Assembly (NCBI GenBank): GCA_052147455.1
Contig: JBKQKO010000009.1
Coordinates: 6,699-70,698 of the forward strand
Origin: Desulfobaccales bacterium
GTDB taxonomy: Bacteria > Desulfobacterota > Desulfobaccia > Desulfobaccales > 0-14-0-80-60-11
Reading direction: 5' to 3'
Length of the DNA stretch: 64,000 nt
In this document: positions 24,842 to 49,505 of the stretch, piece by piece
Numbering within the stretch: position 1 is the first letter of the stretch
Layout: each line of letters starts with the position of its first letter
Translations under genes and position numbers: made by a program
The notes under the pieces: generated by a model
Database searches by the model: none
Seen by the model: the letters and a program-made list of their open reading frames with translations, nothing else
Told to the model about the DNA's origin: nothing

Positions 24842-24981
24842 GATGTAGGGTGCGCACTGCGCACCATTTCCTTTATGGTGGCAAAGGCTTCCAGCCTGTG
24901 ATCGGGTCGCCCGCCAAGATGTAGGGTGCGCACTGCGCACCATTTCCTTTATGGCGGCACAGGCTTCCAGCCTGTGCTCGG
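24842..24981 (+). repeat. Two tandem ~76-bp units of a REP-like element
   Basis: gatgtagggtgcgcactgcgcaccatttcctttatggYggcaMaggcttccagcctgtg occurs at 24842 and again at 24918. Related pieces are at 26121-26145 and 32582-32690. Confidence 0.9.
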
Positions 24982-29841: not shown

Positions 29842-29865
29842 ACAAATAACCTAACAGGCGGCGGT

Positions 29866-31160: not shown

Positions 31161-32549
31161 TCATCCCAGGGCCGCGGCCAGGCGCGGCGCCAGGTGGTCG
31201 AAGTCGCCGTTGGACATGATCAGCACCAGGTCGCCCGGCCGCAGCAGGTCCAGCAGTCCCGTTAGGAGCTGGTCGGTGTCGGGAAAATAGAGGGCGGTCT
31301 GGCCCTGGCGCCCCAGGTCGGAGGCCAGTTGCCGGGAGGAAAACTGCTCCTCCGGCTCCACCTTCCACAGGTCCGGCGGCTCCCGCACCAGGACCAGATC
31401 CGCGTCTTTAAAGGCCGCGGCGTAAGGCTCCTGAAAGACGCGGCGCCGGGAGGTGTTGGTGCGGGGCTCGAAGACCGCCAGCAGGCGGCGCTCCGGGTAG
31501 CCCTGGCGCACCGCCGCCAGGGTCACGGCCACCGCGGTGGGATGGTGGGCAAAATCCTGCACGATCAGCACCCCCTGAAATTCCCCCACCACTTCCTGGC
31601 GCTTGTGCACTCCCTGAAAGCCCGTTAGGGCTTTCTGTAGGTCGCCGGGCTCGCCTCCCACTTCCGCCAGGGCCGCCAAAGCGGCCAGGGCGTTCCAGAC
31701 GTTGTGGGTCCCCAGCATGGGCAGAAAAAATTCACCCCAGGCCTTCCCTTCCCGGAGGACGGTGAAATTCATGCCCCCGGCCTGGGGTGAGAGGTCCGCA
31801 ATCCGCCAGTGGCAGTGGGGGCCCTGGCCGTAAAAAGCCACGGGCGCTCTGGCGCGCCGGCAGACCTGCCGCACCAGGGGCGCATCTCCCCAGGCCAGGA
31901 CCCGGCCGTCCGCGGGCACCTGATCCAGGAAGGATTCAAAGGCCCGGATGACCTGGTCCAGGTCGGCGTAGATGTCGGCGTGGTCGAACTCAATGGAGGT
32001 GAGCACCGCCACCCGGGGCCGAAAATGGACGAATTTGGGGCGCTTGTCGAAAAAGGCGGTGTCGTATTCATCGCCTTCCAGGACCACGTAAGGGCCCCGG
32101 CCCACCCGGTAGTTGGCCTGAAAATTCCGGGCGAGGCCTCCCACCATGAAGCCGGGGTCCAGTCCCAGGGCGTAGAGCAGCCAGGCGATCAGCGCGGTGG
32201 TGGTGGTCTTGCCGTGGGTGCCGGCCACCACCAGGCTTTGGCGTTCCCCCACCAGGAAGCGGTTCAAGGCCTCAGGCAGGGAGAGGCGGGGGATGTCGCT
32301 CTTAAGCAGGGCCTGGGCCTCGGGGTTGTCCCGGCGGATGACGTTGCCCACCACTGCCAGGTCCGGCCGCGGCTCAAGATTCTCCGGGGCGTAGCCGTTT
32401 TGCACCGGAATGCCCAGCCCGGCCAGATAGGTGCTCATGGGCGGGTAGGCGTGTTCGTCGGAGCCGCTGACCCGGTAGCCCTGCTCCTGGAGGATGCCGG
32501 CCAGGGCCGCCATGCCGGTGCCGCAGATGCCCAGGAGGTGGATGTGCAT
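31161..32549 (-). CDS. mpl: UDP-N-acetylmuramate:L-alanyl-gamma-D-glutamyl-meso-DAP ligase
   Basis: MHIHLLGICGTGMAALA, YPPMST, AGTHGKTTTT, EGDEYDTAFFDKRPKFVHF, IEFDHADIY, IMSNGDF. Recalled from memory, it appears collinear with E. coli Mpl. Confidence 0.9.
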   Translation of the reverse strand: MHIHLLGICGTGMAALAGILQEQGYRVSGSDEHAYPPMSTYLAGLGIPVQNGYAPENLEPRPDLAVVGNVIRRDNPEAQALLKSDIPRLSLPEALNRFLVGERQSLVVAGTHGKTTTTALIAWLLYALGLDPGFMVGGLARNFQANYRVGRGPYVVLEGDEYDTAFFDKRPKFVHFRPRVAVLTSIEFDHADIYADLDQVIRAFESFLDQVPADGRVLAWGDAPLVRQVCRRARAPVAFYGQGPHCHWRIADLSPQAGGMNFTVLREGKAWGEFFLPMLGTHNVWNALAALAALAEVGGEPGDLQKALTGFQGVHKRQEVVGEFQGVLIVQDFAHHPTAVAVTLAAVRQGYPERRLLAVFEPRTNTSRRRVFQEPYAAAFKDADLVLVREPPDLWKVEPEEQFSSRQLASDLGRQGQTALYFPDTDQLLTGLLDLLRPGDLVLIMSNGDFDHLAPRLAAALG

Positions 32550-32551
32550 TA

Positions 32552-32579
32552 GAGTTTCGAGTTTCGAGTTTTGAGTTTT
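32552..32579. repeat. Heptanucleotide tandem repeat (gagtttc x2, gagtttt x2) abutting the mpl start codon
   Basis: Read directly; 2 nt from ATG 32549. Confidence 0.9.
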
Positions 32580-32718
32580 TAGTGGCAAAGGCCTCTAGCC
32601 TGTGGAAAAGGGTTTTTTCTGGTTCCCAAGCTCCGCCTTGGGAACCAGAGCCGAAATAAGATGGTGCGCAGTGCGCACCCTACATTATTGATCAGCAGAA
32701 CTGTTACCCTACCCGGAA

Positions 32719-33880: not shown

Positions 33881-34227
33881 GCAGTCATACCAGGTTGCCG
33901 TCAACAGGACATTTTTATACGGGCGGACCCGCAGGGCAAAAGGCAAAAAGGGCAAAAGCAAAGGTTATCCAATAGTTACCAACGGCTGACGCCTCCCTCC
34001 CCCTAACCCCCTCCCCCCACGGGGAGGGGGAAAAGACGACTTACCCAATTTAACCGGACTTTTGCAAGACCATCAAAGGAATTTCACTTTTAATTTTTTA
34101 CTATTGACTTATCTGCGGACCCATGTGTCCGCCCCAAAGGGCGGTCCGATCACACGCTGAAAGCCTGCGCCACTGTGCGCCCCTACGCAGGATATTTTTG
34201 GTTTATTGACTGCAACCTGGTATCAGC
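33881..34227. mobile_element. MITE-like ~350-bp non-coding element with terminal inverted repeats
   Basis: gcagtcataccaggttgccgtcaa (33881-33904) versus the reverse complement of ttgactgcaacctggtatcagc (34206-34227). The interior is hairpin-rich with no ORF. Confidence 0.35.
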
Positions 34228-34410
34228 AGTCAGATCAGGGCGAGCCGGGCCCGAAAAATTTTTTGTTATTAACGGGAGCATGAAAGGGGTTCAGTTTTAT
34301 CCCCTCTCCCCCGATGGGGGAGAGGGTTAGGGTGAGGGGGAATTTAATCTCTTTTCCGCTCCCATTGCGGCCACGGGCCTCCCCAGGTTGGGTGGGGCTC
34401 GCGCCCCGCC

Positions 34411-36228: not shown

Positions 36229-36349
36229 TTATAAAACGCCATAGTAGTACAGGCACATAGCCTGTTCTCATTTATTGGGCGGCCTGCGGCCGCCATAATT
36301 TTTTGTTCATTACATGCCTTATGGTCTGAAGGAACGAGTGGAAAGCGAA

Positions 36350-37048
36350 TCATAAAGTATCTGTTGTAATTTTAATACCTTTTTTAATGAAATTTCGCAT
36401 TTTATTGGGGCCTTCTGGAGATAAACCGCATTCCTGCATCTCGTGGTACCAGTTCTCCAATGCTTGTTGCATCCACCTCATATCCTTTTTCCAGACAGGT
36501 CCCAAATGTTTAATCCATAATTCTATTTCTTTTTCGGTGATCTCTTTTTTAGATATAAATATTTTAGCTAAATAAATTACCATCTTTGCAATGCCTTCAT
36601 CAATAACTTCTTCAGGAATTGACCAGTGGGCATTACCTAAACAATCTGTATAAAAACCAATTTGCTTTAAATTATCCAAAATATAAGGATGTTCGGCATC
36701 TTCTTTGAACATCGGAAGGAAATCATCGAGTTTCCTTGCACCAGCTTTAACCATATCCATAAGAACCCAAGCGACATTCTTTTTTGTGTGGGACCGATAA
36801 TCTTTCCAAGCTTCTTTGAGCTCTTTGTCATTTCTTGCGACTGATAATCCTCTTAAAATTGATTCCTTTCCAGACTCTTCAATGGATAAAATTGCTAAGC
36901 TTGTAGCAGTCGCATACCTTTTGTTTTCAATCAATAATTCTGCTTCTTCAGCAAGTCTCCTCGCGTTTCTAGCTGCCGCATTCATTCCTTCAGCTATCTG
37001 TGCGGCGGATAATTCACCTTTGTAATGATTTAGTTTTCTCTCGCTCAT
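36350..37048 (-). CDS. AbiV-like HEPN abortive-infection protein
   Basis: NAAARNARRLAEEAELLIENKRYATATSLAILSIEESGKESIL matches my recollection of the AbiV-family N-terminal helical pattern. Strongly AT-rich single-gene insert. Confidence 0.55.
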   Translation of the reverse strand: MSERKLNHYKGELSAAQIAEGMNAAARNARRLAEEAELLIENKRYATATSLAILSIEESGKESILRGLSVARNDKELKEAWKDYRSHTKKNVAWVLMDMVKAGARKLDDFLPMFKEDAEHPYILDNLKQIGFYTDCLGNAHWSIPEEVIDEGIAKMVIYLAKIFISKKEITEKEIELWIKHLGPVWKKDMRWMQQALENWYHEMQECGLSPEGPNKMRNFIKKGIKITTDTL

Positions 37049-39220: not shown

Positions 39221-39403
39221 ATCCCAATCGTCGCGGTTTCCATCACCTGCCAAAGCTGGGGCCCTGGCTAAAATGGCGTTCCCCGGCAGGAGCTTGGGAA
39301 CGGGAATAAATCCCCTTTTTCCAAAGGGGGGTTTGTCGCCTTGAAAATGCCTAGATGCGACTATCGTGATGTCCCACAATTACCTTAACAAAAGATTCGA
39401 GAT

Positions 39404-39510
39404 AACCCCCCCTCCCTTGAGGGGAGGGGGTTGGGGGGAGGGTGGCAACAGATGGTAAATGAAAGAAAAATTACCACCCCTACCCGGTGTCGCCCCCTCA
39501 AGGGGGAGGG
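39404..39510 (+). repeat. Composite G/C-rich hairpin repeat, copy B
   Basis: See 35478-35590. Confidence 0.85.
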
Positions 39511-39596
39511 AAAAAGACAAAGTATTTATGCAACGTTTCCGTGGGACGCAATAATAGAAGCTGCTGTCGCCGTAGTGTCCCTGGGGAGGCGCAGTT

Positions 39597-39687: not shown

Positions 39688-40854
39688 CTACAGCCCCAAG
39701 GGAGCCAGGTAGCGCCGCTGGATTTCGGCCTGCAGCCAGTCGCCGCGGGCGCTCTCCCGGCGGTCCAGGAGATCATGCAAGTCCCCGGCCACCTGCCGCA
39801 GACGGACGAGGATCTGCTCCCGGGCCCCGGCCAGCGGCCCCCAATCCCCGGAGTCACGCAGGCGCCAAAAGGCCGGCTCCAGCTCCGGCATGAGCGGGGC
39901 GTAAAGGGGAGGCCGCAAGGCCAGCAGCAGCGCCAGGGAAGCCAGGCGGCGCTCCTCGATCAGGTAGGCGAGGCGGCCCCATTCGTTGACTTCCGCCAGG
40001 GCGTCTTTCAGGGTCCGGAGCCACAGCTCCAGGCGGCTATGGGGAGCAAGGTCCAAAAGCGCGGCAAAGGCTGGTCCCAGGCTGGGCTCCAGAGCCTCCC
40101 CAACTTCGTGGTGGATGACGGCCTCCAACTCCCCGGCCAGGAAGACCTCAAACCCGGGCCAATGGGCCGCAGGGTCCCGGAGCAGGCTGGCCAGCTCCAG
40201 CCCGTAAGCCCCCAGGGCCACTTGCAGAAAGGGTTTGTGCTGCTGGATGGGGTCGGAGACGCGGTCCCAAAGGTAGAATTCCCAGGCCTGCCGGCGGACG
40301 TAAATCCAGGGCCCCTGGCGCAAGGCCGGGGCGCCGTCCAGGTCCCGGGCCAGTTCCCGGCCCAGCAACAAGATGGTCAGGTCACCCCGGCGCCGGACTT
40401 CTTGCAGTTCAGCCAGGAAACAGGTGGGAGTCTGCCCCCGGCTCAGGCCGGCGCCATAGGCGAATCCCAGGGGAATCAGGCGCCGGTTGATGGCGGCCAC
40501 CGCCAGAGGCTGGAAGCGCCGCCTTCCTAAGGGGAGCCGCTGCCAGGCGGCTTCTTGCAGGCTATCCCAGGCAAGCTCCCTGGCTTCAATCCACTCCAGC
40601 ACTGCGGCGGGTTCCGGCTCCCGCCAGGGTGGCAGGAGATGTTCCCATTTATAGAGCTGCCGCAGCCTAAGCAGGGCGCCGCACAGGGAGTAGCCCCCGG
40701 CCTGGGTGGCCGCGGCCACCTGACAATTAGAGGCCACCCGGTCCAGGAAGGTTGGGGGGAGCATCAATGGGGCGCGGCCCCGGGTCATTCCTGGCCGCGG
40801 CGCCTGGAAATCTGCGCTTGGGATCGAGGGAATCCTCCCTGAAGGCCGGCTCAT
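39688..40854 (-). CDS. Conserved hypothetical protein (388 aa)
   Basis: Long ORF in the coding strand context. Its start overlaps the stop of the upstream TPR gene by 4 nt. No motif recognised. Confidence 0.5.
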   Translation of the reverse strand: MSRPSGRIPSIPSADFQAPRPGMTRGRAPLMLPPTFLDRVASNCQVAAATQAGGYSLCGALLRLRQLYKWEHLLPPWREPEPAAVLEWIEARELAWDSLQEAAWQRLPLGRRRFQPLAVAAINRRLIPLGFAYGAGLSRGQTPTCFLAELQEVRRRGDLTILLLGRELARDLDGAPALRQGPWIYVRRQAWEFYLWDRVSDPIQQHKPFLQVALGAYGLELASLLRDPAAHWPGFEVFLAGELEAVIHHEVGEALEPSLGPAFAALLDLAPHSRLELWLRTLKDALAEVNEWGRLAYLIEERRLASLALLLALRPPLYAPLMPELEPAFWRLRDSGDWGPLAGAREQILVRLRQVAGDLHDLLDRRESARGDWLQAEIQRRYLAPLGL

Positions 40855-41615
40855 TGGCGAATCTGGTCCACCAGCTTCTGGGCCAGATCCTTGTCCAGGC
40901 CCTGGAGGGTCTTGAATTCCCGGTTGGCGGCCGCGACGTCCCCGGCCCTGGCATAGTAAGCGCTCAGGGCATAATGGACCTGGGGATCTTTGGGGTCCAG
41001 GGCCGCCGCTTCCTTCAGCTCTTTGCCGCCCTCCTCCAGTTGGCCCAGGTTGAGGTAGGCCAGTCCCAGGTTGCGGTGGGCCCGGGCCATGTCCGGCTGT
41101 AATTTGACGGCCTGGGCGAACTCCGCCAGGGCTTCCCGATCCCGGTTCATTTTGCCCAGGGCCAGCCCCAGGCGGTAGTGGTTCTCAGGGTCGTCGGGGC
41201 GCAGGCGCAACGCCTTCAAGAAGGCGTCCCGGGCCTCCGGAAAACGCTCCATTTTCATATAGGCCGCTCCCAGATTTCCCTGGGCCATGGCCGACCTGGG
41301 CTGCAGGCGCACGACCTCCTTAAACGCCTGAACCGCTTCCGGGTAGCGGTTCAAATTGGCATAGGCCAGACCTAACTGCTGCCGGGCCTCGACATAATCG
41401 GGCTCCAGGAGGATGGCCTTCTGGTATGCCTGGATCGCTTCCTCGACGTGGCCGCTCTGTTCCAAACCCTGAGCCTGATGAAAAAGGTCCACGGCCTTGG
41501 CCGGGACTCCGGATTCTTCCTCATAGCGGTCCACCTGGGCCGCAAGCGGTCCAGCCAGGAAGGTCAGGCAGATCAAGACGGCCAGTGAGGCTCGTCCTGC
41601 CGCAATTTTCAGCAT
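40851..41615 (-). CDS. Secreted TPR-repeat protein
   Basis: Signal-like LAVLICLTFLAGPLAAQ, then six or more TPR units (AIQAYQKAILLEPDYVEARQQLG, etc.). Confidence 0.8.
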   Translation of the reverse strand: MLKIAAGRASLAVLICLTFLAGPLAAQVDRYEEESGVPAKAVDLFHQAQGLEQSGHVEEAIQAYQKAILLEPDYVEARQQLGLAYANLNRYPEAVQAFKEVVRLQPRSAMAQGNLGAAYMKMERFPEARDAFLKALRLRPDDPENHYRLGLALGKMNRDREALAEFAQAVKLQPDMARAHRNLGLAYLNLGQLEEGGKELKEAAALDPKDPQVHYALSAYYARAGDVAAANREFKTLQGLDKDLAQKLVDQIRQ

Positions 41616-41731
41616 TATTGGTTCTCCAGGGGGAAGGATTTTCCATCAGTATATTAAAAAATCGCCGGGAAGGGGAGGGGATGGGAGGGGATCAGGGTGA
41701 GCCGGTTTCCTAAAGGCAAATTAATATGGGT

Positions 41732-41831
41732 AGGTTGTGGGACGAGACCCTTACGGCCCTCCTTAACGCTTCCAACTTATAGGGCGGCCTGTGGCCGCCT
41801 CCCATGGGGCGCCCCAAAGCGGCGGGCGCAG
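41732..41831 (+). repeat. Island-flanking direct repeat, left copy
   Basis: acgagacccttacggccctccttaacgcttccaacttatagggcggcctgtggccgcctcccatggggcgccccaaagcggcgggcgcagcccgccctat. About 85 % identical by eye to 45447-45547, same orientation. Confidence 0.9.
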
Positions 41832-41887
41832 CCCGCCCTATTTTGAGCTGCAAGATTTAAGAGATTGTGGCGGTGTTTGGTCGGCTC

Positions 41888-42172
41888 TTACTTTCCGATT
41901 CTGGCTCTAAACGGATTACTTTTCTTCCAGCCAGCGTCGGACTTCCTGTCTACCTTAAATACCTTTATGTCCGCATCTGATTTATCGTTTACCCAATAAA
42001 TCTTGAAATCCGCATCTGATTTTCGCTGTACATAGAACCAAAGAGCGTCCCCCTTGGCGTCTGAATCACGATCAACCACATGAAAGAGGAGGTCTGCGTC
42101 GCTCTTCCGATCTACTTCAAAGACATTCGCATCTGCGTCTGATTCACGATTTACGACGAAGATTTTAGCCAT
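41888..42172 (-). CDS. Small repeat protein (six SDA[DKG]-centred units)
   Basis: MAKIFVVNRESDADANVFEVDRKSDADLLFHVVDRDSDAKGDALWFYVQRKSDADFKIYWVNDKSDADIKVFKVDRKSDAGW. Strong Shine-Dalgarno AAGGAGAA. Confidence 0.6.
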   Translation of the reverse strand: MAKIFVVNRESDADANVFEVDRKSDADLLFHVVDRDSDAKGDALWFYVQRKSDADFKIYWVNDKSDADIKVFKVDRKSDAGWKKSNPFRARIGK

Positions 42173-42210
42173 GGTTTTCTCCTTTTCGCCTTAGTTGGTA
42201 TCATTTGACA

Positions 42211-43179
42211 TCACACCGAGTTCTTTTCTATCATGCTTAGAAATTCGCTTAGGGGGAGCATACAGATGCCATGCAATCCATAACCGGCAAAGCTTGCTAC
42301 AAAAAATCTCAAGTCAAAACGCTCCGACTGTCCGTATTCGACAATTTCAGGATGTTTGAGTATGTTTATTAGTTTTGGACTACGCGGATTGTGATTGGCC
42401 AACAGAAAGATCACTTCAGGTGGTTTATCTTTAGATAGCTTAAGTTTTGTGAAGTTGCTAGACCGATTGAACCGGAGCAATTCTAAATCAGCGAGTTGCT
42501 CGAACTGCGCCTCCATCGTCTCTAACAATGAATTATAGCGTTCACTCGAAATAAATGAATCAATGTCTTTCAAATGTTCGAGTAATCCAGAGATACCACC
42601 AAGCGCAGCATCAGCATATTTCATCTCCATCAAAGCCGCTTTACAGTTGCTACCATCTTTGCGTTCCTTTGCAAGCCAGCGTATTCCTAGCATATCAAAG
42701 CGAGCGCCAAGACCTGAATCGGCAAACTCAATGTCTGTAATAAAATACTCACTTTCATTTGAAATTGTCGAGTAGTTGTTCTCCCGGGCAACCAACTGCT
42801 GGAACTCCCGCTCCGGCTTCTCACGAGTAGTTGCGAAATAGCAGTCCATAATTTCCTTAAGAAATGGGATTGCGTCAATCCATGTCCTAACATGCACAGG
42901 CCCATCGAGGGTATCTGGAAGATCGGGAAGAGGAAGATAATCCTCGCATGTGCCTTCGTATTTCGGATCAAAAGATGCCCGGTATGATTGCTTCGCCGAA
43001 TTGTATTTAACCTTGAGAATATTGCCGCCCCGATAGTAGATATTGATATAATTGTCTCGAATAGCAAGCATGAGTGTGTCATCTCGCTGCACTCGTTTGA
43101 GTATCGGGTGAAGCAGACCTTTATCCTCCAGGTCATGCATAAAAGTTTTGGATAGTTTTCTAATGTTAATCTTATCCAT
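42211..43179 (-). CDS. Uncharacterised protein with a PD-(D/E)XK-like nuclease core
   Basis: EREFQQLVAREN...ARFDMLGIRW...KAALMEMKYAD gives the E / D / E-x-K order. Start taken at MDKINIRK (43179) behind GGAGGA. Confidence 0.55.
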   Translation of the reverse strand: MDKINIRKLSKTFMHDLEDKGLLHPILKRVQRDDTLMLAIRDNYINIYYRGGNILKVKYNSAKQSYRASFDPKYEGTCEDYLPLPDLPDTLDGPVHVRTWIDAIPFLKEIMDCYFATTREKPEREFQQLVARENNYSTISNESEYFITDIEFADSGLGARFDMLGIRWLAKERKDGSNCKAALMEMKYADAALGGISGLLEHLKDIDSFISSERYNSLLETMEAQFEQLADLELLRFNRSSNFTKLKLSKDKPPEVIFLLANHNPRSPKLINILKHPEIVEYGQSERFDLRFFVASFAGYGLHGICMLPLSEFLSMIEKNSV

Positions 43180-43202
43180 CCCAATTCCTCCATGAATATA
43201 AT

Positions 43203-44447
43203 TTATTCGACACCCCACCAGACGCCGTCTTCCTTAATCTTCACCTTATCAAAAAACTCCGGAAAGCGTCCCGGTTCAAACGAATGGATCGGGACCACCG
43301 TCCTGGCGTTGATTGCTCTAGCCAAGCGCTTGAGGTCCGAAATAGAGGCGTGACCGGATGTGTGTATCTGGCTCATGGGAATCCTATGATAATCTAGCCA
43401 ATTAAGAAAGGGGAATATTGACTCCTTCTCCAGATATCCTCCCCAAAGGGAGTAGATAAGCCCGGCTTCCTGCAAACACCCGGCCTGTTCCAGGTCAGTC
43501 GCCATGGAGGGCCGAAAGAGCATGGTGGCATGGGCAGCTATTTCCCGTAATTCCTTTGGAAAAATTCGATTCTTTTTATAGATTTCCAGCAGATGAAAGA
43601 GCTGTTTTCTCTTGACCAGCCGCCGCTGCCACTGCGGAATAAAAACCCGGACGCCGGGCCAATCGCCTTGGGGGATATGAGGATTTTCCGTGGCCCGGAG
43701 GATTACCGCGGTATAGAGGTCGATGATCATTTGGCGCTGGCTTTGCTTGCAGGCTCGAAAAACGGTGACGATACGGTCGATATTTTGGCCGGAGCAATAG
43801 ACCAAGACCATGCCTTTGGTAGATTTCATCTCCTTTATAAAACGGACCTCTAATTCTCTTTCCGTGGGGAATCGTCCCTCTGCCTTCAGGCGCCCGATCG
43901 TGGAGCCTTCCAGGAGCAAAACATCCACATCCTTGGGGGACTTACGTACCAGCCTTTCAAAGAGGGTAGCCTTGGCGCCATGCGCTCGCAGGTCTCCGGT
44001 ATAAAACAGGCGCTTGTTATCGGCGGCAACCAGAAAGGCATAAGCATCATAAGCTGAATGATCAATCAGGTAAGGGGTTATCTCAAAAGGACCCACTTGC
44101 ATTGGTTCCAGGTCCTTCAAGTAGATTGCATTCAGGAACGTGGCCCCCGCAGGGATGAAGTTGGCGGCAGCGTCAAGAATGCGGCTGGCGGCAGCGCCGA
44201 CAAAAATAGGCAGATCAAGCCGCAAGTATTTTGCCAGGCCGTAATGATCCTGGTGGGGGTGGGAGATCACCACTCCCAAAAGGGTTTCATCCTTTTTCCT
44301 GAATCCCGACACTGGAGGCAGCAACGCCTCCGTATCCGGGGCGTCGAGAGGCAGGCCCACTTCCAGAACCAGGCGGTTTCCTTGGGCTTCAATCTCGACG
44401 CAGGTGCCCCCGATCTCCTGGGTCCCCCTATGGATGCACACCCTCAT
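43203..44447 (-). CDS. Beta-CASP-type metallo-beta-lactamase-fold nuclease
   Basis: VVISHPHQDHYG (HxHxDH), LIDHSAYDAY, YTGDL, VLLLEGSTIG (motif A), HTSGHAS (motif B), VVPIHSFE (motif C). Confidence 0.8.
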   Translation of the reverse strand: MRVCIHRGTQEIGGTCVEIEAQGNRLVLEVGLPLDAPDTEALLPPVSGFRKKDETLLGVVISHPHQDHYGLAKYLRLDLPIFVGAAASRILDAAANFIPAGATFLNAIYLKDLEPMQVGPFEITPYLIDHSAYDAYAFLVAADNKRLFYTGDLRAHGAKATLFERLVRKSPKDVDVLLLEGSTIGRLKAEGRFPTERELEVRFIKEMKSTKGMVLVYCSGQNIDRIVTVFRACKQSQRQMIIDLYTAVILRATENPHIPQGDWPGVRVFIPQWQRRLVKRKQLFHLLEIYKKNRIFPKELREIAAHATMLFRPSMATDLEQAGCLQEAGLIYSLWGGYLEKESIFPFLNWLDYHRIPMSQIHTSGHASISDLKRLARAINARTVVPIHSFEPGRFPEFFDKVKIKEDGVWWGVE

Positions 44448-44502
44448 TTTGACTCTTCAACCGATCCTTTAACTCACCCATTGTGAGACTTAATAGGTTT
44501 GT

Positions 44503-44835
44503 TTATAATTTTTCCGTCGCAAAAACAGCACCATCCTTGAGTATATACTCCCCCCTCTGAATGGACTCTTCCTCATCATCAAGCCATTGGATGATTACCT
44601 TTTCCCTTTCCCAAGACTCCATCTTATCAACAGATTTAAAGATTATTGCGGATACCGATAGACAGGGATCACAATAGTACTCCCCCAAAAGATATCCGTC
44701 CTTATCCCGTCCAAATATATAAGTCATTGGAACACTTTTAACGAAATTCCCGCAAAGTCCGCAGGGGAGAGAAACATCAGGATTCTCAAAACGAAATCCT
44801 ATGTGGCTTGGATGATATTTTTCAGATTCACTCAT
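44503..44835 (-). CDS. Cys-rich hypothetical protein (possible zinc ribbon)
   Basis: 110 aa with CGLC ... CDPC pairs about 28 residues apart. AT-rich; same strand as its neighbours. Confidence 0.45.
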   Translation of the reverse strand: MSESEKYHPSHIGFRFENPDVSLPCGLCGNFVKSVPMTYIFGRDKDGYLLGEYYCDPCLSVSAIIFKSVDKMESWEREKVIIQWLDDEEESIQRGEYILKDGAVFATEKL

Positions 44836-45012
44836 AGCTATATCATCGTCTCCCGAATCAAGGCGGGTTTGTCTTTTTAATTGTGCTCGCGTACCATGGT
44901 GACGGCAACATACTATATATTCAAAATTGGAGCCGAGAAATTTACACTTGCAGAAACTTTTTTCAAATTGTTTTAATCGGAGGTGAGAAATGAAGATTTA
45001 GAGCTAATCCCC

Positions 45013-45351
45013 TTATCGTGTAAAAGGCTGTGAATCCGCGCTCTGTTTCTTCATTTGCTTTGCCAATGTCGGCAGGTCCTTGATCGTTTCCCCGGATTTC
45101 TGCTCGGCAAGCCGCAGTTCATAGAGCTTTTGCAGGTTCAGCCAGAACTCCAGGCTGGTCCCGAAGAAATGGCCCAGGCGCAAGGCCGTGTCGCCGGTCA
45201 CGGCGCGCTGGCCGTTCAGGATTTCGGTTATGCGGTTGGTGGGCACCTTGAGCTGGCGCGCCAATGCCGCGGCGCTCATGTCCAGCCCTTCAAGTTGTGC
45301 GGCGAGATGTTCGCCGGGATGTATGGCACTGCGTCCCATAATGCACCTCAT
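45013..45351 (-). CDS. higA: HigA-family antitoxin (XRE-type HTH)
   Basis: IHPGEHLAAQLEGLDMSAAALARQLKVPTNRITEILNGQRAVTGDTALRLGHFFGTSLEFWLNLQ. Its ATG directly follows the higB-remnant stop. Confidence 0.85.
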   Translation of the reverse strand: MRCIMGRSAIHPGEHLAAQLEGLDMSAAALARQLKVPTNRITEILNGQRAVTGDTALRLGHFFGTSLEFWLNLQKLYELRLAEQKSGETIKDLPTLAKQMKKQSADSQPFTR

Positions 45352-45481
45352 TCAGTGGTAATCGACGATTTCAACATTTACCGGCCCCGGCGTGCCTTTC
45401 GGCCACTCGAAACAAATCCGCCATTGGTCATTTATGCGGATGGTATACGAGACCCTTGCGATCACCCTTAAGCGCTTCCAA
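45352..45481 (-). pseudogene. higB: HigB toxin remnant (5'-truncated and out of frame)
   Basis: One frame reads LEALKGDRKGL. The adjacent frame reads YTIRINDQWRICFEWPKGTPGPVNVEIVDYH*. There is no N-terminal half, and REP DNA lies immediately upstream. Confidence 0.75.
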
Positions 45482-45547
45482 GTTATAGGGCGGCCTGTGG
45501 CCGCCTCCCATTGGGCTAGCTAAAGCGGCGGGCACAGCCCGCCCTAT
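45447..45547 (+). repeat. Island-flanking direct repeat, right copy
   Basis: acgagacccttgcgatcacccttaagcgcttccaagttatagggcggcctgtggccgcctcccattgggctagctaaagcggcgggcacagcccgccctat. Confidence 0.9.
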
Positions 45548-45662
45548 AAGCGTGTATTGACCGAAGCTCACAATCATTGTTCTAAGATATAAGGTAAATT
45601 ATGCGTTACGTCCAGGATAATATGAAATAAAAACCGCAAACCGCAAAACCGAAAACCATCCT

Positions 45663-47339
45663 TTAGCGGTTGGCGAGCAGGCGTTTACCGGGCAGGGCCA
45701 GGCGCACTTCCGCCCCTTGCAGCCAGGGCTCCGGCGGGGTGGCGTCATCGATCAGCAGGAAGACCCTATCCGGCCCCTGCCACAAGGTTTGCAATCGTTC
45801 TGGGGTAATGAGGTAGTCCTGGGCCGGGGGCACCGGGTGGGGAAATTGAGGGAGGCCGTGGCGCTTCACCATGAGGATAGGGCGGCCGGCGTAAAAGGCC
45901 AGGGAGGCGCCGTATTCATACTCCTCGATTTGCTCCATGACCACCTGGTCGCCGGGAGCGGCGTTTTGCCGGAGCCATAGCCCCGGGATCTGGTCACTCA
46001 TGGCCGGCATGAGGGTCAGCCAGATGCGTAAGGTGAACAGGAGCAGAGAAAGGGAGAGAAAGCCGTAGCAAGCCAAGGCCAGACGGGGTCGCCGGGCCCA
46101 GCCGGCAGAGAAGCCCGCCAGGGCCAGGGCCGGGATCAGGTAAGTCACCGGGCGGGCCACCGGGGCGATGATGCAGAACATGCCCGAGAACTCCCGGCGA
46201 TTGCCGGCGCAGAGCTGTTCCAGATGGGGGAGCAGAAACAGGGTGGCCAGTCCCAAGAGGCCGATGATCAGCAGGGCCCAGAGGGGGCCGCGGTCCCCGG
46301 GGGTATCTAGAAAGCGCTTCAGGCGCCAGCCGATGAGCAGGGCCAGGGGTGGCAGGGCCGGCAGGGAGTAGTATTCGATGCGGCTGGAGGACAGGCTAAA
46401 GAAGATCAGGATCACCGCGGGCCAGATGATCAGAAGCCGGCCGGCGCGGTGGGCGGCTTCCCCGGTCTCCCTCCAGAACCGCCAGAGGGCCCCGGGTAGC
46501 AAGGGTGTATAGGGGCTTAGCCAGATGCCCAGAAAGAGCCAGAAGCCGGGAAGGGAGAAAGGGTTGATGTCCGGCGGCTGGCGTCTTCCCAGGAACCGCA
46601 ATAGCTGTTCATTAATGACCTGGAATTTGATGAACCCCGGGTTGGCCAGCTCGCTGGCCGCCAACCAGGGGACTATGAGAAGGAAAAGCACGGCCAGGCC
46701 CAGCGGAGACCATAAAATGGAGAGCAGGCTGGCCCGGCGCAACTGCCAGGCGTAGATGACGACGATCAGCCCCGGGAATACCAGGCCGATGAAACCTTTG
46801 CTAAGAAACCCCAGTCCCAGGGCGAGGAAGAAGAGGGCGCTCCACTTGCCGGACGGCTGCTCCTGCCAGCGCAGCAGGAAATAGAGCGAGGCTGCCAGAA
46901 AAAGGGTGATGAGATGATCGGTGAGGATCTGCAGGTGCAGGACAAAAAAGCCGATGCTGCTCAAGAGGGCCAAGCCCCCCAGCCAGGCCGCCTCCCTTCC
47001 CAACAGGCGCCGGCCGATGAGGTAGGTGACCCAGACCTCCGCCAGGGTCACCCCCAGGAGGGGCAGGCGGGCCACCCGGTCGGAGACCCCGAAAAATTTA
47101 TAGCACAGCAGGTTGAGCCAGTAGAGCAGGGGGGGTTTGTCCCAGTAAGGGACTCCGTTGAGGGTGGGGGTCAGCCAGGAGCCCGAGGCCAGCATCTCTT
47201 TGGGAATGAGGGCGTACATGCCCTCGGCCCGGATCAGGGGAGTTTGCCAAACCAACGGAATCAGGTAGACCGTCAGGCAGGCCAGCAACAGCGTGTAGCC
47301 GTTGGCCAGAGAGAATGGGGCGCTGCGGTTCATGCCCAT
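45663..47339 (-). CDS. ArnT/PMT-like glycosyltransferase (family 39/83 type, polytopic)
   Basis: More than 10 hydrophobic spans. N-terminal EGMYALIPKEMLASGSWLTPTLNGVPYWDKPPLLYW is typical of ArnT-like undecaprenyl-phosphate sugar transferases. Confidence 0.75.
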   Translation of the reverse strand: MGMNRSAPFSLANGYTLLLACLTVYLIPLVWQTPLIRAEGMYALIPKEMLASGSWLTPTLNGVPYWDKPPLLYWLNLLCYKFFGVSDRVARLPLLGVTLAEVWVTYLIGRRLLGREAAWLGGLALLSSIGFFVLHLQILTDHLITLFLAASLYFLLRWQEQPSGKWSALFFLALGLGFLSKGFIGLVFPGLIVVIYAWQLRRASLLSILWSPLGLAVLFLLIVPWLAASELANPGFIKFQVINEQLLRFLGRRQPPDINPFSLPGFWLFLGIWLSPYTPLLPGALWRFWRETGEAAHRAGRLLIIWPAVILIFFSLSSSRIEYYSLPALPPLALLIGWRLKRFLDTPGDRGPLWALLIIGLLGLATLFLLPHLEQLCAGNRREFSGMFCIIAPVARPVTYLIPALALAGFSAGWARRPRLALACYGFLSLSLLLFTLRIWLTLMPAMSDQIPGLWLRQNAAPGDQVVMEQIEEYEYGASLAFYAGRPILMVKRHGLPQFPHPVPPAQDYLITPERLQTLWQGPDRVFLLIDDATPPEPWLQGAEVRLALPGKRLLANR

Positions 47340-47424
47340 GACTGGAGGAAAGGCGTAATCGATACCCCGGACTCTAAACTTTTTTAGGTGACTGCTGAAA
47401 GCTGATAGCTGACTGATTTTTTTC

Positions 47425-48420
47425 TCAAGTCAGGTTCCAGCGGAACATGCGCCAGAGGTCGGAGAAACCGCTCATCTCCCGGACTACGCTGGGCTCGAAG
47501 CCGGAGTGCATCATGCACTGGGAGCAGCGGGGGTCCCGGCCGACTCCGTAGCTGTCCCAGTCGGTGCGGTCCATCATCTCCCGGAAGGTGGGATAATGGG
47601 CATCCACGATCTGGTAGCAGGGGGAGCGCCAGCCCTGGGGGTTGCGGGTGGGAGTGGCCCAGGGGGTGCATGCGTAGTCCCGTTCGCCCCTGAGGAAACT
47701 GAGGTACAGGGGGGTGCTGAAGAAATTGAATTTGAGGCCGTTGCCCGTAAGTCGCTGGAATTTATCCTTGATCTCCTCCCGGCTCAGGAAGAGCTCGTCG
47801 TCGACCCCCTGGAAGCTGTAAGCCGGAGAAATCAGCAGGCCGTCCACCCCAATGTAGGCCAGGTAGGACAAGAGAATCTCGATTTCCTGGAGATCGGTCT
47901 TCTTATAGATGGTGGTGTTGGTGCAGACCCGAAAGCCCATAGCCTTGGCGGCCTTGATGGCCTTGATGCCAAGGTCAAAAATCCCCCGGCGCCCCAGCAG
48001 GACATCATGGCTAGGCGCCAGCCCGTCCAGGTGGACGCTCAGGGTGAGGTGGTCCGAACGGGGTAGCTGGGGAAGTGAGCGCTCCAGCAGGATGGCGTTG
48101 GTGCACAGATAGATGAACTTGCCGCGGCGCACCAGTTCGTGGAGGAGATCGAAGACCGGGGGATAGATGAGGGGTTCGCCGCCGGTGATGGTGACCACCG
48201 GGGCGCCGCACTCTTCCACGGCGGCCAGGCATTCCTCCAGGGCCAGGGACTGCCCCAGGCTCTCGTGATATTCCTGGATGCGGCCGCAGCCGGCGCAGGA
48301 CAGGTTGCACTGATGGGTAGGCTCCAGCATCAGCACCAGGGGAAATTTTTTCTCTCCCTGAAGCCGTTTCTTCAGCAGGTAGCGACCCAGGTCGAAGCTA
48401 AGCCTTAATGGAAACCGCAA
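47425..48420 (-). CDS. hpnH: Hopanoid-associated radical SAM protein HpnH
   Basis: EPTHQCNLSCAGCGRI (CxxxCxxC) within an N-terminus typical of HpnH. Adjacent to hpnA and shc. Confidence 0.8.
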   Translation of the reverse strand: MRFPLRLSFDLGRYLLKKRLQGEKKFPLVLMLEPTHQCNLSCAGCGRIQEYHESLGQSLALEECLAAVEECGAPVVTITGGEPLIYPPVFDLLHELVRRGKFIYLCTNAILLERSLPQLPRSDHLTLSVHLDGLAPSHDVLLGRRGIFDLGIKAIKAAKAMGFRVCTNTTIYKKTDLQEIEILLSYLAYIGVDGLLISPAYSFQGVDDELFLSREEIKDKFQRLTGNGLKFNFFSTPLYLSFLRGERDYACTPWATPTRNPQGWRSPCYQIVDAHYPTFREMMDRTDWDSYGVGRDPRCSQCMMHSGFEPSVVREMSGFSDLWRMFRWNLT

Positions 48421-48482
48421 GACAAACCTCTCATTGAAGTTCAGAAAATAATTTGGGAACTATTCACCCAATAGCAATATTT

Positions 48483-49505
48483 TTAAGCGTAGCGGTGTTC
48501 CCGAAACCATTCCACCGCCTCCGCCAATGCCTGGCGCACCGGAGTCAGGGTTAATCCTAGATATTGTAACGCTTTTGTATTATTAAAGTACATAAATTTT
48601 CGAGCCATGCGGATGGCGGTGACCGGCATGCGGGGTGGTTGACCGCTGATCCGCGTGCTGTAAAACTCGTTGAGGTAAGCCATGGCCAGCACCGGCCAGT
48701 AAGGCAAGCGGAAGCGGGGGGCCGGCCGGCCGCTGACTTCCGCCAGCAATTGAAAGATCTGGGAAAGGCTCAAATTTTCATGTCCGAGGATATATTTTTC
48801 AGCCACCTGTCCCCTGGCCTCGGCCAGAAGGTGCCCCCGGGCCACGTCGGCGACGTGGATCAGATTGAGGCCGGTCTCCAGGTAAGCGGGCATGCGCCCC
48901 TTGAGGAAATCGACGATTATCTGGCCGGTGGGGGTGGGGCGCCAGTCCCAGGGGCCCACCGGGGTGCTGGGGTTGACCACCACCAGGGGCAGGCCCCGGG
49001 AAGCGAAATCCAGGGCCAGGCGTTCCGCCAGGAACTTGGAGCGTTTGTAGTGTCCCACCATCTCGGTCAGGCTCACCGGGGCCGCCTCGGTCCCCGGGGT
49101 ACCGTCCCCGGGGTTGCCCAGGGTGCCCACGGTGCTGGTGTAGACCACCCGATCGACTCCTTGGGCCAATGCCGCGGCCAGCAGGTTCCTGGTTCCCTCC
49201 ACGTTGATGGCGTACATCTCCTCGGGATGGGGGACCCAGAGGCGGTAATCCGCGGCCACGTGGAAGAGGCGGGAGCAGCCGGACAGGGCTGCATCCAGGG
49301 AGGCCCGGTCCCGCAAATCGCCCTGGGCCACCTCCACCGGCAGCCCTTCCAGGGCGGGATGCCGGGGGTTCCGGGCCAGGACCCGCACGGCCCGCTTCTG
49401 GGCCAGTAGTTCCAGGACCACCGCCCGGCCCACGAAGCCGCTGCCGCCGGTTACCAGGGTTTTAGGGTGGTTTGCAAGCGTTTTGCGGTTTTCGATGGGG
49501 GTCAT
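48483..49505 (-). CDS. hpnA: NAD-dependent epimerase/dehydratase, HpnA-like
   Basis: TLVTGGSGFVGRAV Rossmann motif and YKRSK catalytic motif; hopanoid gene context. Confidence 0.7.
   Translation of the reverse strand: MTPIENRKTLANHPKTLVTGGSGFVGRAVVLELLAQKRAVRVLARNPRHPALEGLPVEVAQGDLRDRASLDAALSGCSRLFHVAADYRLWVPHPEEMYAINVEGTRNLLAAALAQGVDRVVYTSTVGTLGNPGDGTPGTEAAPVSLTEMVGHYKRSKFLAERLALDFASRGLPLVVVNPSTPVGPWDWRPTPTGQIIVDFLKGRMPAYLETGLNLIHVADVARGHLLAEARGQVAEKYILGHENLSLSQIFQLLAEVSGRPAPRFRLPYWPVLAMAYLNEFYSTRISGQPPRMPVTAIRMARKFMYFNNTKALQYLGLTLTPVRQALAEAVEWFREHRYA

What the first reader, a model, noticed from the sequence alone, without database searches (positions are those of the whole stretch)
41732..45547. 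AT-richer 3.6-kb island bounded by ~100-bp imperfect direct repeats that each contain a REP hairpin pair plus a higB fragment
Seen: 41732-41831 and 45447-45547 align in the same orientation over about 100 nt (roughly 85 % by eye). Each copy holds two REP-type hairpins (ggcggcc-tgt-ggccgcc and ggcgggc-Rca-gcccgcc). Each also has about 35 nt that on the minus strand encode LEAL(K/R)...(K/R)(G/V), an internal HigB-like fragment. Everything between the copies is visibly lower in G+C and is coded on the minus strand. The flanks are high-GC (a TPR gene to the left, arnT-like-hpnH-hpnA-shc to the right). The island splits an otherwise coherent envelope-lipid neighbourhood (arnD-like ... arnT-like/hopanoid). 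Similarity between the copies stops exactly where the right-hand higB reading frame breaks (about 45447/45448). This fits a recombination junction better than a simple point frameshift. No integrase or transposase lies inside.
Basis: seen in the sequence. Interest (0 to 1): 0.65.

Follow-up and report, generated by a model that had tools for sequence, protein, structure and literature searches.

The report
Nuclease islet between broken-toxin-gene repeats
A 3-kb imported nuclease gene cassette sits in a fast-changing chromosomal slot of a Desulfobaccales bacterium, and the 100-bp repeats around it are two copies of a toxin gene broken by a host repeat element, not the attachment sites of a mobile element.

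Summary
41742-41841 and 45447-45547 are direct repeats (88/101 identical). Each is an inverted REP pair (REPIN-like hairpin) plus about 35 nt of higB codons. The DNA between them is compositionally foreign (GC 0.465 vs 0.600, z -3.6).

The att-site reading does not hold. The right copy is part of the resident higB'-higA operon, colinear with intact higBA at the same position in relatives that lack the island. The +1 frameshift near its end also occurs in the same allele in an unrelated context, so it is not an insertion junction. The left copy is a truncated relic of a second copy of that allele. No recombinase is present. One relative keeps the cargo with no right repeat and no higA. Another has the cargo bracketed by two REP pairs with higA outside.

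The ArnT-like/TPR gap shows seven content states among relatives. The cargo is an RNase J-like beta-CASP nuclease, a hypervariable partner that looks like a PD-(D/E)xK nuclease, and two small proteins. Its core recurs on prophages, plasmids and other loci.

Most likely host homologous recombination placed it next to a duplicated, eroding addiction module. This is a moderately interesting new member of a known kind.

The parts
41704..41741 (-). Possible relic of the higA 3' end plus post-higA sequence (CACAACCTACCCATATTAATT), directly abutting the conserved TPR-upstream region
   Evidence: Local alignment to the L008 higA end (CACAGCCT-CACCTAGTAATT) gives p=0.018. Against L022 p=0.05 and against L006 p=0.08, versus shuffles. 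The order and orientation are as expected. This is suggestive only.
41742..41775 (-). Left higB tail: relic of HigB codons of about 50-61, reading LEAL-KEGRKGLV after a 1-nt correction
   Evidence: 29/35 identical to the right tail. It is orthologous to the degenerate tails in L015 and L022.
41776..41841 (.). REPIN_L: inverted REP pair with a 21-nt spacer
   Evidence: hairpin -24.4 kcal/mol. Orthologous copy in L015, L022 and L026.
41842..41887 (-). Cargo / REPIN_L junction (J2). It contains GCAGCTC (41845-41851, minus strand) and CTCTTAAATCTT (41852-41863, minus strand).
   Evidence: Sequence reading. An 11/12-nt direct repeat with the other cargo end was flagged. Its meaning is unresolved.
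41888..42172 (-). DUF6150 repeat protein, 94 aa
   Evidence: PF19647, E 1e-19. 71% identical to the K allele. Replaced by a different repeat protein in M.
42211..43218 (-). Hypervariable partner protein (322-335 aa), probably a PD-(D/E)xK-type nuclease
   Evidence: No Pfam, NCBIfam or PDB sequence hit. More than 1,250 homologues. Confident model with pLDDT 88 and pTM 0.88, with no significant structural match in the PDB. Invariant D162 and E185-x-K187 lie on consecutive strands. Only 25% identical to the K-allele partner.
43203..44447 (-). RNase J-like beta-CASP metallo-beta-lactamase nuclease, 414 aa
   Evidence: PF12706 and PF07521. TIGR00649 at E 8e-20, below its cutoff. PDB RNase J at E 3.5e-14. 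88-90% identical among the W, K and M alleles.
44503..44835 (-). 110-aa cysteine-rich protein, first gene of the cassette
   Evidence: No family hit. 77-86% identical in K and M.
44836..45012 (-). Conserved cassette leader and its 5' terminus (J1). TAGCTCTAAATCTT lies at 44993-45006 on the minus strand.
   Evidence: The leader and the TAGCTCTAA terminus are conserved in W, K and in L031, which has an unrelated FtsX context. Promoter-like site at 44966-44939.
45013..45351 (-). higA antitoxin, intact and resident
   Evidence: TIGR02607, 88 bits against a cutoff of 47.7. 92-94% identical to HigA of L006, L008 and L022 at the same position.
45352..45446 (-). higB 3' part, reading YTIRINDQWRICFEWPKGTPGPVNVEIVDYH*, out of frame with the tail
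45447..45481 (-). Right higB tail (codons of about 50-61, YNLEALKGDRKGLV)
45482..45547 (.). REPIN_R, replacing higB codons of about 10-49
   Evidence: -26 kcal/mol, z -4.45.
45548..45662 (-). higB codons 1-9 (ATG at 45577) and the higB promoter region, adjacent to the ArnT-like stop codon
   Evidence: Orthologous to L005, L006, L008 and L022. Promoter-like site at 45626-45598.

Best explanation
The two ~100-bp repeats are the 5' portions of two copies of one pseudogenised addiction module. In this module (H) the toxin gene higB has had codons of about 10-49 replaced by a host REPIN-type REP pair.

Shown:
- The right copy belongs to the resident, vertically inherited higB'-higA operon. It sits immediately after the ArnT-like gene, as higBA does in relatives.
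- The left copy is a relic reduced to the REP pair plus 12 higB codons, possibly with a few bases of the higA end. It lies against the TPR gene's upstream region.
- Between them is an imported AT-rich cassette: a small protein, a beta-CASP nuclease, a hypervariable PD-(D/E)xK-like partner and DUF6150. The core of this cassette circulates on prophages, plasmids and other chromosomal sites.
- No recombinase is encoded in the island.
- The slot is hypervariable, and its flanks are mosaic between lineages.

Inferred mechanism: host homologous (RecA-type) recombination, not a dedicated recombinase, built the arrangement. DNA carrying the cassette together with H-homologous or REPIN-homologous sequence crossed over with the resident module (a Campbell-type single crossover, or REPIN-to-REPIN exchange). 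This left a copy of the homologous stretch on each side. A later deletion removed higB-3'/higA from the downstream copy.

Further decay and exchange produced the sister alleles. K lost the whole upstream module by deletion. M lost its higB middle to a different repeat and has a REP pair at the cassette's 5' end.

Two functional points are also inferred. The surviving repeats could still support RecA-dependent loss of the island. The retained higA probably represses PhigB and may act as an anti-addiction gene.
For: 1. Resident status of the right copy. The promoter, higB codons 1-9, the tail, the higB 3' end and higA align colinearly (about 91-92% nt) with higBA of L008 (intact HigB, PF05015) and of L006, at the same position after ArnT.
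2. One allele lineage. The REP pair sits at the same two boundaries (AATACAYGCTTA|REP|TAAGTTGGAAGCG) in W, L016 and L020. The +1 frameshift state is shared by W and L020, and the left copy shares the string GGGTCTCGT.
3. The left copy is old and orthologous. It lies inside a continuous 86.9% alignment with L015 and is present in L022 and L026. A sequence resembling the higA end follows it (p 0.02-0.08).
4. The module is portable. H is a discrete unit from its -35 box to the higA stop, with different neighbours in L020 and, 3'-truncated, in L016.
5. The slot is a hotspot. Seven content states occur between the same two genes.
6. Homologous exchange occurs here. In hpnH (47.3-48.6 kb) W is 94-96% identical to the island-bearing M and K alleles but only 84-94% to its otherwise closest relative L005.
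7. K derives from a W-like state by deletion. It retains about 17 nt of post-higA sequence (GTGATTAGCTC) fused 30 nt after the ArnT stop.
8. No integrase, transposase or RAYT in the island or in the 20 atypical or unannotated ORFs scanned elsewhere in the window.
9. REP elements mark old host DNA, and acquired DNA is REP-poor (PMC3390384). This fits both REP pairs being host sequence and the cargo having none.
10. Toxin-first erosion of chromosomal TA loci is the documented norm (PMC13617665). higB was destroyed here in at least three independent ways, in W, L006 and L022.
Against: - No allele with an intact second module (REP pair, full higB 3' end and higA next to TPR) was found.
- No allele with the REP-interrupted module directly abutting TPR without cargo was found. 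The proposed intermediate and pre-insertion states are therefore unobserved.
- The higA-end relic beside the left copy is only marginally significant, and it is not visible in K or M.
- The REP cores are too short and uniform to give a tree that separates duplication in situ from arrival of a second module.
- Short repeats at the cassette borders are not predicted by plain homologous recombination and hint at a more specific joining process. These are the TAGCTC hexamer at both ends in all three alleles, and an 11/12-nt CTC(T)TAAATCTT repeat in W.
- In ArnT itself, right next to the island, W remains closest to the island-free L005. No simple import-with-flank tract is visible.
Confidence: 0.55

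Rival explanations
1. Two independent higB::REP-higA modules. The left relic is not a duplicate made when the cargo arrived. It is a separate copy of the portable module that landed in the slot, with the cassette or before it, and then decayed.
For: The module exists as a discrete unit in at least three genomic contexts. L-R divergence (13%) is as large as the divergence between species at this locus. The left copy predates the W/K/M split.
Against: The module's means of movement is unknown. The left copy lacks the promoter and the first codons, and it starts exactly at the REP-pair border. A crossover or REP-border event explains that more easily than a whole-module insertion does.
Confidence: 0.2
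2. REP-element machinery did it. A RAYT-type (IS200/IS605-like) transposase acting on the REP pairs copied the REP pair together with adjacent higB bases to a second site. Alternatively it mobilised or captured the cassette at REP-pair ends, making a REPIN-bracketed composite.
For: - In M the cassette is bracketed by two REP pairs that share TAGCTCA on one side and TAAGTTGGAA on the other.
- REPIN_M sits precisely between TAGCTC and TAA of the cassette terminus.
- In L005 the same REP-pair lineage borders yet another cargo.
- The L031 cassette ends in CTCATAGGG, which resembles a cassette/REP-pair junction.
- REPIN excision with asymmetric ends is documented (PMC3116915).
Against: No RAYT gene was seen in the ORFs of the window that were scanned. 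RAYTs are not known to move kilobases or flanking DNA. The tails carried differ in length (about 35 nt against about 7-11 nt), so there is no consistent cleavage site. K keeps the cassette with only one REP pair.
Confidence: 0.12
3. The repeats are attL/attR of an integrative island, inserted by a site-specific recombinase encoded elsewhere, into an att site that overlaps higB.
For: Direct repeats flank a compositionally foreign segment. The unit is not dispersed.
Against: - There is no recombinase.
- higA and the higB 3' end lie inside the repeats, yet they are resident and orthologous in island-free relatives.
- No empty site with one copy was found.
- K has the island without the right repeat, and M has a different bracket.
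- 13% divergence between the copies is unlike a fresh att duplication.
- The supposed junction is shared with L020.
Confidence: 0.06
4. Assembly artefact: a chimeric MAG contig joined at repeated REP sequences.
For: The source is a metagenome-assembled genome, and repeats are typical misjoin points.
Against: The identical arrangement occurs in three assemblies (window, L001, L002). The cassette sits at the same slot in a complete chromosome (L015) and in a 567-kb contig (L022).
Confidence: 0.02

Closest known systems
REPINs (REP doublets forming hairpins; Bertels & Rainey 2011, PMC3116915)
   Same: Two inverted REP sequences with a short spacer (61-66 nt in all) are predicted to form one hairpin. 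The REP family is dispersed and strictly extragenic in the window, with 9 cores.
   Different: This particular outward-facing pair with this spacer occurs only at this locus in all the DNA examined. It lies inside a pseudogene. The cognate RAYT is not demonstrated. The lineage (Desulfobaccales) is outside the groups where REPINs have been studied.
Core defence hotspots flanked by conserved genes (Johnson et al. 2023, PMC10250203)
   Same: There are fixed flanking core genes (ArnT-like and TPR) with highly variable, low-GC content between them. There are no mobile-element hallmarks. Transfer through homologous recombination in the flanks is plausible, and a mosaic flank was seen.
   Different: The slot is tiny (0.1-4 kb). 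Its content is TA modules plus nuclease genes not yet shown to be defence systems (no solid PADLOC hit). The sample is a handful of MAGs rather than thousands of genomes.
Erosion of chromosomal type II TA systems, toxin first (Belot et al. 2026, PMC13617665)
   Same: higB has been destroyed while higA stays intact. Independent inactivations occurred in sister lineages.
   Different: One specific REP-interrupted allele is conserved across species and across genomic contexts, rather than being a private decay product.
Integrase-driven genomic islands with att direct repeats (established knowledge)
   Same: Direct repeats flank a compositionally foreign segment inserted between core genes.
   Different: There is no integrase. 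The repeats are 13% diverged. One repeat is internal to a resident operon. The island persists without that repeat in allele K.
Campbell-type (single-crossover homologous) integration, which leaves the homologous segment duplicated (established knowledge)
   Same: The cargo is flanked by direct copies of a sequence that pre-existed in the chromosome. Each copy keeps its resident outer neighbour.
   Different: This is inferred only. The circular or donor molecule and the pre-insertion allele were not observed, and the downstream copy is heavily deleted.

Membership tests
att-flanked integrative island | Site-specific recombinase (integrase) encoded in or next to the island | tested here: not met
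   None of the five island ORFs has a recombinase domain (Pfam, NCBIfam, PADLOC). Nor do 20 further atypical or unannotated ORFs scanned across the window.
att-flanked integrative island | Relatives show an empty site with a single copy of the repeat | tested here: not met
   L006 has a higB remnant and higA abutting TPR, with no REP pair. L008 has intact higBA. L005 has the REP pair without the tail and with other neighbours. L009 has a rhomboid gene.
att-flanked integrative island | The repeats delimit the transferred unit | tested here: not met
   Resident higA and the higB 3' end lie inside the repeats. Allele K has the cargo without the right repeat. Cassette homology in L031 ends at 44983, not at a repeat.
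REPIN | [quoted passage not shown] | tested here: met
   Arms of 21-24 nt, 86-92% complementary, with a 21-nt spacer.
REPIN | Predicted single-strand hairpin | tested here: met
   -26.0 kcal/mol (z -4.45) for the right copy and -24.4 kcal/mol (z -2.1) for the left.
REPIN | Member of an abundant, extragenic REP population in the genome | tested here: inconclusive
   There are 9 REP cores in 64 kb, all extragenic. However, the other doublets face inward, and the whole source genome could not be searched.
REPIN | Cognate RAYT transposase in the genome | not testable with these tools
   None was seen among the window ORFs that were scanned. The whole genome was not available.
HigBA type II toxin-antitoxin | HigA-family HTH antitoxin | tested here: met
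   TIGR02607, 88.3 bits against a cutoff of 47.7.
HigBA type II toxin-antitoxin | Intact HigB toxin upstream of higA | tested here: not met
   Codons of about 10-49 are replaced by the REP pair, and there is a +1 frameshift. The intact orthologue is in L008 (PF05015).
Core defence hotspot | Conserved flanking core genes with variable content between them | tested here: met
   Seven content states occur between ArnT-like and TPR/DUF6866.
Core defence hotspot | The content consists of anti-phage systems | tested here: inconclusive
   TA modules are present. The cassette has no significant PADLOC match (best E 0.006). Its core does occur in prophage and defence-rich neighbourhoods.
Composite transposon / MITE-bounded element | Terminal inverted repeats with a target-site duplication and a transposase | tested here: not met
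   The repeats are direct, no transposase is present, and only an unexplained TAGCTC hexamer lies at the borders.

The most novel reading that the evidence does not exclude
REP pairs (REPINs) at this slot are not passive. They may act as the joining points for cassette exchange. The same REP-pair lineage lies exactly at the border of three different cargos: W/K/M, L005, and the 5' end of the cassette in M. The cassette terminus TAGCTC abuts the REP-pair end. A copy of the cassette in an unrelated locus ends in a string resembling a cassette/REP-pair junction. If a RAYT or a hairpin-directed recombination process captures or releases kilobase cassettes at REPIN ends, REPINs would be a host-encoded docking system for accessory or defence genes. 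The REP-interrupted higB would then be a conserved docking module rather than debris.
Probability: 0.12. Interest if true: 0.7.

Novelty: new member of a known kind. Interest (0 to 1): 0.4.

Why it matters
This is a clean, small example of how accessory genes turn over in an uncultured Desulfobaccales lineage without any dedicated mobility gene. A decaying addiction module and a host REP element supply repeated sequence in a gap between core envelope-lipid genes, and the gap holds a different cargo in nearly every relative.

It also serves as a caution. Direct repeats around a low-GC segment need not be attachment sites.

Two side products may be worth more than the repeats themselves. First, a REP-interrupted higB allele is conserved across species and across genomic contexts. 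Second, there is a widespread, unnamed two-nuclease cassette: a beta-CASP nuclease plus a hypervariable partner whose confidently predicted fold has no match among solved structures. Its distribution resembles that of a defence system.

Tried and rejected
- Dispersed-repeat test. I scanned the window, 185,579 species genomes and JGI metagenomes for the REP/tail junction. The REP core alone is dispersed.
- Empty-site search through orthologues of the ArnT-like and TPR proteins. No single-repeat empty site was found.
- Tree of the REP-pair copies. The sequences are too short and uniform (80-100% identical) to separate orthologues from paralogues.
- Import-with-flank signature. Mosaicism was found 2-3 kb away, but no tract runs up to the island.
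- higA-relic test. It is only marginal (p 0.02-0.08), and I treat it as suggestive.
- Recombinase/RAYT hunt among 20 atypical or unannotated ORFs of the window. None was found. The remaining high-GC ORFs further left and at the far right end of the window were not scanned.
- Function of the partner protein by sequence and by fold. There was no significant match. The PD-(D/E)xK reading rests on invariant residues and strand positions only.
- Cassette leader in viral contigs. No hits. Nuclease relatives on viral contigs are only 56-57% identical.
- I considered and dropped an integron-like reading, in which the REP pair would act as an attC-like site with TA cassettes. The REPs are scattered among core genes and no integron integrase is present.
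- I considered that REPIN_M in allele M carries a higB tail. Once the REP inverted repeat is extended to ...CCCTATAAG, only about 7 nt (TTGGAA) remain, which is too little to decide.

Full report
**Notation.** Gene direction is the window's minus strand. Reading from the ArnT-like gene (45663-47339) to the TPR gene (40851-41615), the elements are:
- A: the higB promoter and higB codons 1-9 (45662-45548).
- B_R: REPIN_R plus the higB tail (45547-45447).
- C: the higB 3' part and higA (45446-45013).
- The cargo (45012-41842).
- B_L: REPIN_L plus the tail (41841-41742).
- A short spacer, then D, the conserved TPR-upstream region.

I call the unit A+B+C the module H. W is the window allele. K is L015/L026. 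M is L017/L018/L022.

**1.

The direct repeat is 41742-41841 vs 45447-45547. That is 88 of 101 columns identical, with one 1-nt indel, and similarity falls to background just outside both ends. The left copy starts 10 nt to the right of the coordinates given.

The right-hand two thirds of each copy is an inverted pair of REP sequences with a 21-nt spacer. As single strands they fold into one long hairpin: -26.0 kcal/mol (z -4.45) for the right copy and -24.4 kcal/mol (z -2.1) for the left.

The REP core is a dispersed family. There are nine cores in the window, all extragenic. The other doublets face inward, and none of them carries the tail.

The remaining ~35 nt are true HigB codons. The right copy reads YNLEALKGDRKGLV and aligns base for base with an intact 93-aa HigB (PF05015) in relative L008.

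The cargo is compositionally foreign. Its GC is 0.465, against 0.600 +/- 0.038 elsewhere (z -3.6). Its tetranucleotide distance has z +4.7. GC3 is 0.38-0.62, against 0.77-0.83 in the flanking genes.

All island genes are on the minus strand, and none has a recombinase domain. Two other assemblies contain the identical structure.

**2. What the right copy is.**

The organism is a Desulfobaccales relative (names). In relatives, the gap between the ArnT-like gene and the TPR gene holds a higBA operon.
- L008 has intact higB and higA, followed by an unrelated 397-aa gene.
- L006/L007 have a higB remnant and higA directly abutting the TPR upstream region.

The window's A, the tail, the higB 3' end and higA align colinearly with these at about 91-92% nucleotide identity, the same level as the flanking genes. 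The right repeat is therefore part of the resident operon.

In this operon the REP pair has replaced higB codons of about 10-49, and one extra base shifts the frame in GGTCTCGTATACC.

The same allele occurs in two other contigs with different neighbours. It has the same two REP boundaries (AATACAYGCTTA | REP pair | TAAGTTGGAAGCG). L020 lies between a UspA-like gene and an HTH gene. L016 lies next to rubrerythrin.
- In L020 it is a discrete unit from its -35 box to the higA stop.
- In L016 homology starts at the ATG and the higA end is truncated.
- The +1 state is shared with L020 only. L016 has a different indel at that spot.

The frameshift string GGGTCTCGT(A) is shared by W_R and L020, and by W_L up to its truncation point. 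So the frame break is an old feature of the allele. The point 45447/8 is where the left copy is truncated. It is not a junction in the right copy.

**3. What the left copy is.**

B_L lies inside a continuous 86.9% alignment between the window and L015, and it is present in L022 and L026 with a more degenerate tail. It therefore predates the split of these lineages.

Immediately after the tail, the window has CACAACCTACCCATATTAATT. This resembles the higA 3' end plus post-higA sequence of L008 (p 0.018), L022 (p 0.05) and L006 (p 0.08). It is followed by D, which in L006 directly follows higA.

I read B_L as the relic of a second copy of H that has lost its promoter end and nearly all of C. This is inference. 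The relic evidence is marginal.

**4. The repeats do not delimit the mobile unit.**

- **Allele K** (a complete 3.4-Mb chromosome, and L026) has the cargo in the same slot. The cargo is fused 30 nt after the ArnT stop, with no A, B_R or C. An extra RelE-like toxin / MqsA-family-antitoxin-like gene pair lies beside REPIN_L. K still keeps about 17 nt of post-higA sequence (GTGATTAGCTC), so it derives from a W-like state by deletion.
- **Allele M** (on a 567-kb contig) has ArnT, then A, then a higB gutted by a different GGGGAGGG-type repeat, then higA, then a REP pair (REPIN_M), then the cargo, then REPIN_L and D. There the cargo is bracketed by two REP pairs, and higA lies outside them.
- **L005**, the closest relative (96.6% flank identity), has A, other repeats, the same REP-pair lineage without the tail, and then an ankyrin-repeat gene.
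- **L009** has a rhomboid gene in the slot.

That makes seven content states for one intergenic slot.

The REP/tail junction itself is not dispersed. The genome-collection and metagenome scans found only these loci, with one copy in the complete chromosome.

**5. The cargo.**

The 414-aa protein is an RNase J-like beta-CASP metallo-beta-lactamase nuclease. It is 88-90% identical among W, K and M.

Its downstream partner is swapped between alleles. W vs K is 25% identical over 140 residues. K is closer (40%) to an Azospirillum homologue than to W.

The W partner belongs to a family of more than 1,250 unnamed proteins. It models confidently (pLDDT 88, pTM 0.88) but has no significant match among solved structures. 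Its invariant D162 and E185-x-K187 sit on consecutive strands. I read this as a PD-(D/E)xK nuclease core, which is inference.

The trio of a small variable gene, the nuclease and a partner recurs in several settings:
- next to serine recombinases, terminases and transposases;
- on plasmids;
- on viral contigs.

An 86%-identical copy sits beside a MacB/FtsX permease in L031. There, nucleotide homology to the window begins exactly at the cassette's 5' leader (window 44983), which ends in the same TAGCTCTAA.

The cargo is thus a horizontally mobile accessory cassette, plausibly a defence system. It has no solid PADLOC match.

**6. Mechanism.**

Shown:
- no recombinase in the island;
- resident outer neighbours on both repeats;
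- a portable H module;
- a hypervariable slot;
- a mosaic flank. In hpnH (47.3-48.6 kb), W is 94-96% identical to M and K but only 84-94% to L005.

Inferred: host homologous recombination between the resident module and incoming DNA that carried the cassette plus H-homologous or REPIN-homologous sequence. This would be a Campbell-type single crossover or REPIN-to-REPIN exchange. It left a copy of the homologous stretch on each side, and deletion then trimmed the downstream copy.

This fits published work:
- REPs mark old host DNA, and acquired DNA is REP-poor (PMC3390384).
- Chromosomal TA loci erode toxin-first (PMC13617665).
- Core hotspots are proposed to exchange through their conserved flanks (PMC10250203).

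I give this explanation 0.55. The main rival (0.2) is that the second module arrived independently. A REP-machinery (RAYT) process gets 0.12. It is supported by the following:
- the REP bracket in M;
- REPIN_M sitting exactly between TAGCTC and TAA of the cassette terminus;
- a TAGCTC hexamer at both cargo borders in all three alleles;
- an 11/12-nt CTC(T)TAAATCTT repeat in W;
- a CTCATAGGG string at the 3' end of the L031 cassette.

None of these is explained by plain homologous recombination, and I could not resolve them.

The att-site model gets 0.06 and an assembly artefact 0.02.

**7. Verdict.**

The finding is real, and the island is a genuine acquisition. The repeats are two copies of a REP-interrupted toxin pseudogene in a recombination-prone slot, not attachment sites. 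It is a new member of known kinds: a core-gene-flanked variable islet, TA erosion and REPIN-like elements. Interest is moderate (0.4), raised mainly by three things:
- the cross-species conservation of the REP-interrupted higB allele;
- the recurring position of REP pairs at cargo borders;
- the unnamed two-nuclease cassette.

Noticed in passing
window 36273-37048: A HEPN AbiV abortive-infection gene (PF18728, E 4e-44; GC3 0.32) lies between ispF and a 254-aa ORF. A solo REP (36273-36294) sits 55 nt past its stop codon. This is a second AT-rich single-gene defence islet next to a REP.
   Followed up: partly
window 28117-31044: This is the strongest tetranucleotide outlier in the window. It holds a 574-aa FAD amine-oxidase-like gene and a 392-aa gene with no family hit, with GC3 0.46-0.51. 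It is probably another acquired segment.
   Followed up: partly
L006:11930-12060; L022:5540-5680; window about 39266-39511, 24844-24944, 32549-32684, 34139-34366: A second dispersed repeat family (AATCCCCTCCCCCTTGATGGGGGAGGG...GGGTGAGGG) has gutted higB independently in L006 and in L022, at different boundaries. Copies are scattered in the window.
   Followed up: partly
L020:720-1330; L016:1499-1986: The same REP-interrupted higB-higA module occurs as a single unit in unrelated genomic contexts. L020 lies between UspA-like and HTH genes. L016 lies next to rubrerythrin and has its higA end truncated. How a pseudogenised TA module spreads, or why it is kept, is unknown.
   Followed up: partly
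window 42211-43218; L015:4560-5618; L022:2191-3246; L029:7230-8177: The partner gene of the beta-CASP nuclease is swapped between otherwise 88-90% identical cassettes (25-54% identity). The W version has a confidently predicted fold with no match among solved structures, and a D...ExK motif. It is a candidate specificity or effector module of an undescribed system.
   Followed up: yes
window 47290-48640: There is a mosaic tract in hpnH and its upstream spacer. W is 94-96% identical to the island-bearing M and K lineages but only 84-94% to L005, which is closest everywhere else. This indicates recombination between lineages.
   Followed up: partly
L031:1640-1660 and 4195-4225: A cassette copy beside a MacB/FtsX permease begins with the same TAGCTCTAA terminus. 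It ends in TAATACTCATAGGG, which resembles the cassette/REP-pair junction TAGCTCA|TAGGG of K and M, although no REP pair is present there.
   Followed up: partly
L015:3509-4118 (also L022:899-1580, L026:10546-10848): An extra two-gene module on the opposite strand (a 104-aa RelE-like ORF and a 100-aa MqsA-family HTH antitoxin-like ORF) lies between DUF6150 and REPIN_L in alleles K and M. It is absent from the window.
   Followed up: no
L022:1728-2108: In allele M the DUF6150 repeat protein is replaced by a different 126-aa tandem-repeat protein (KPYGK..S..GWEFDGKI repeats) at the same position.
   Followed up: no
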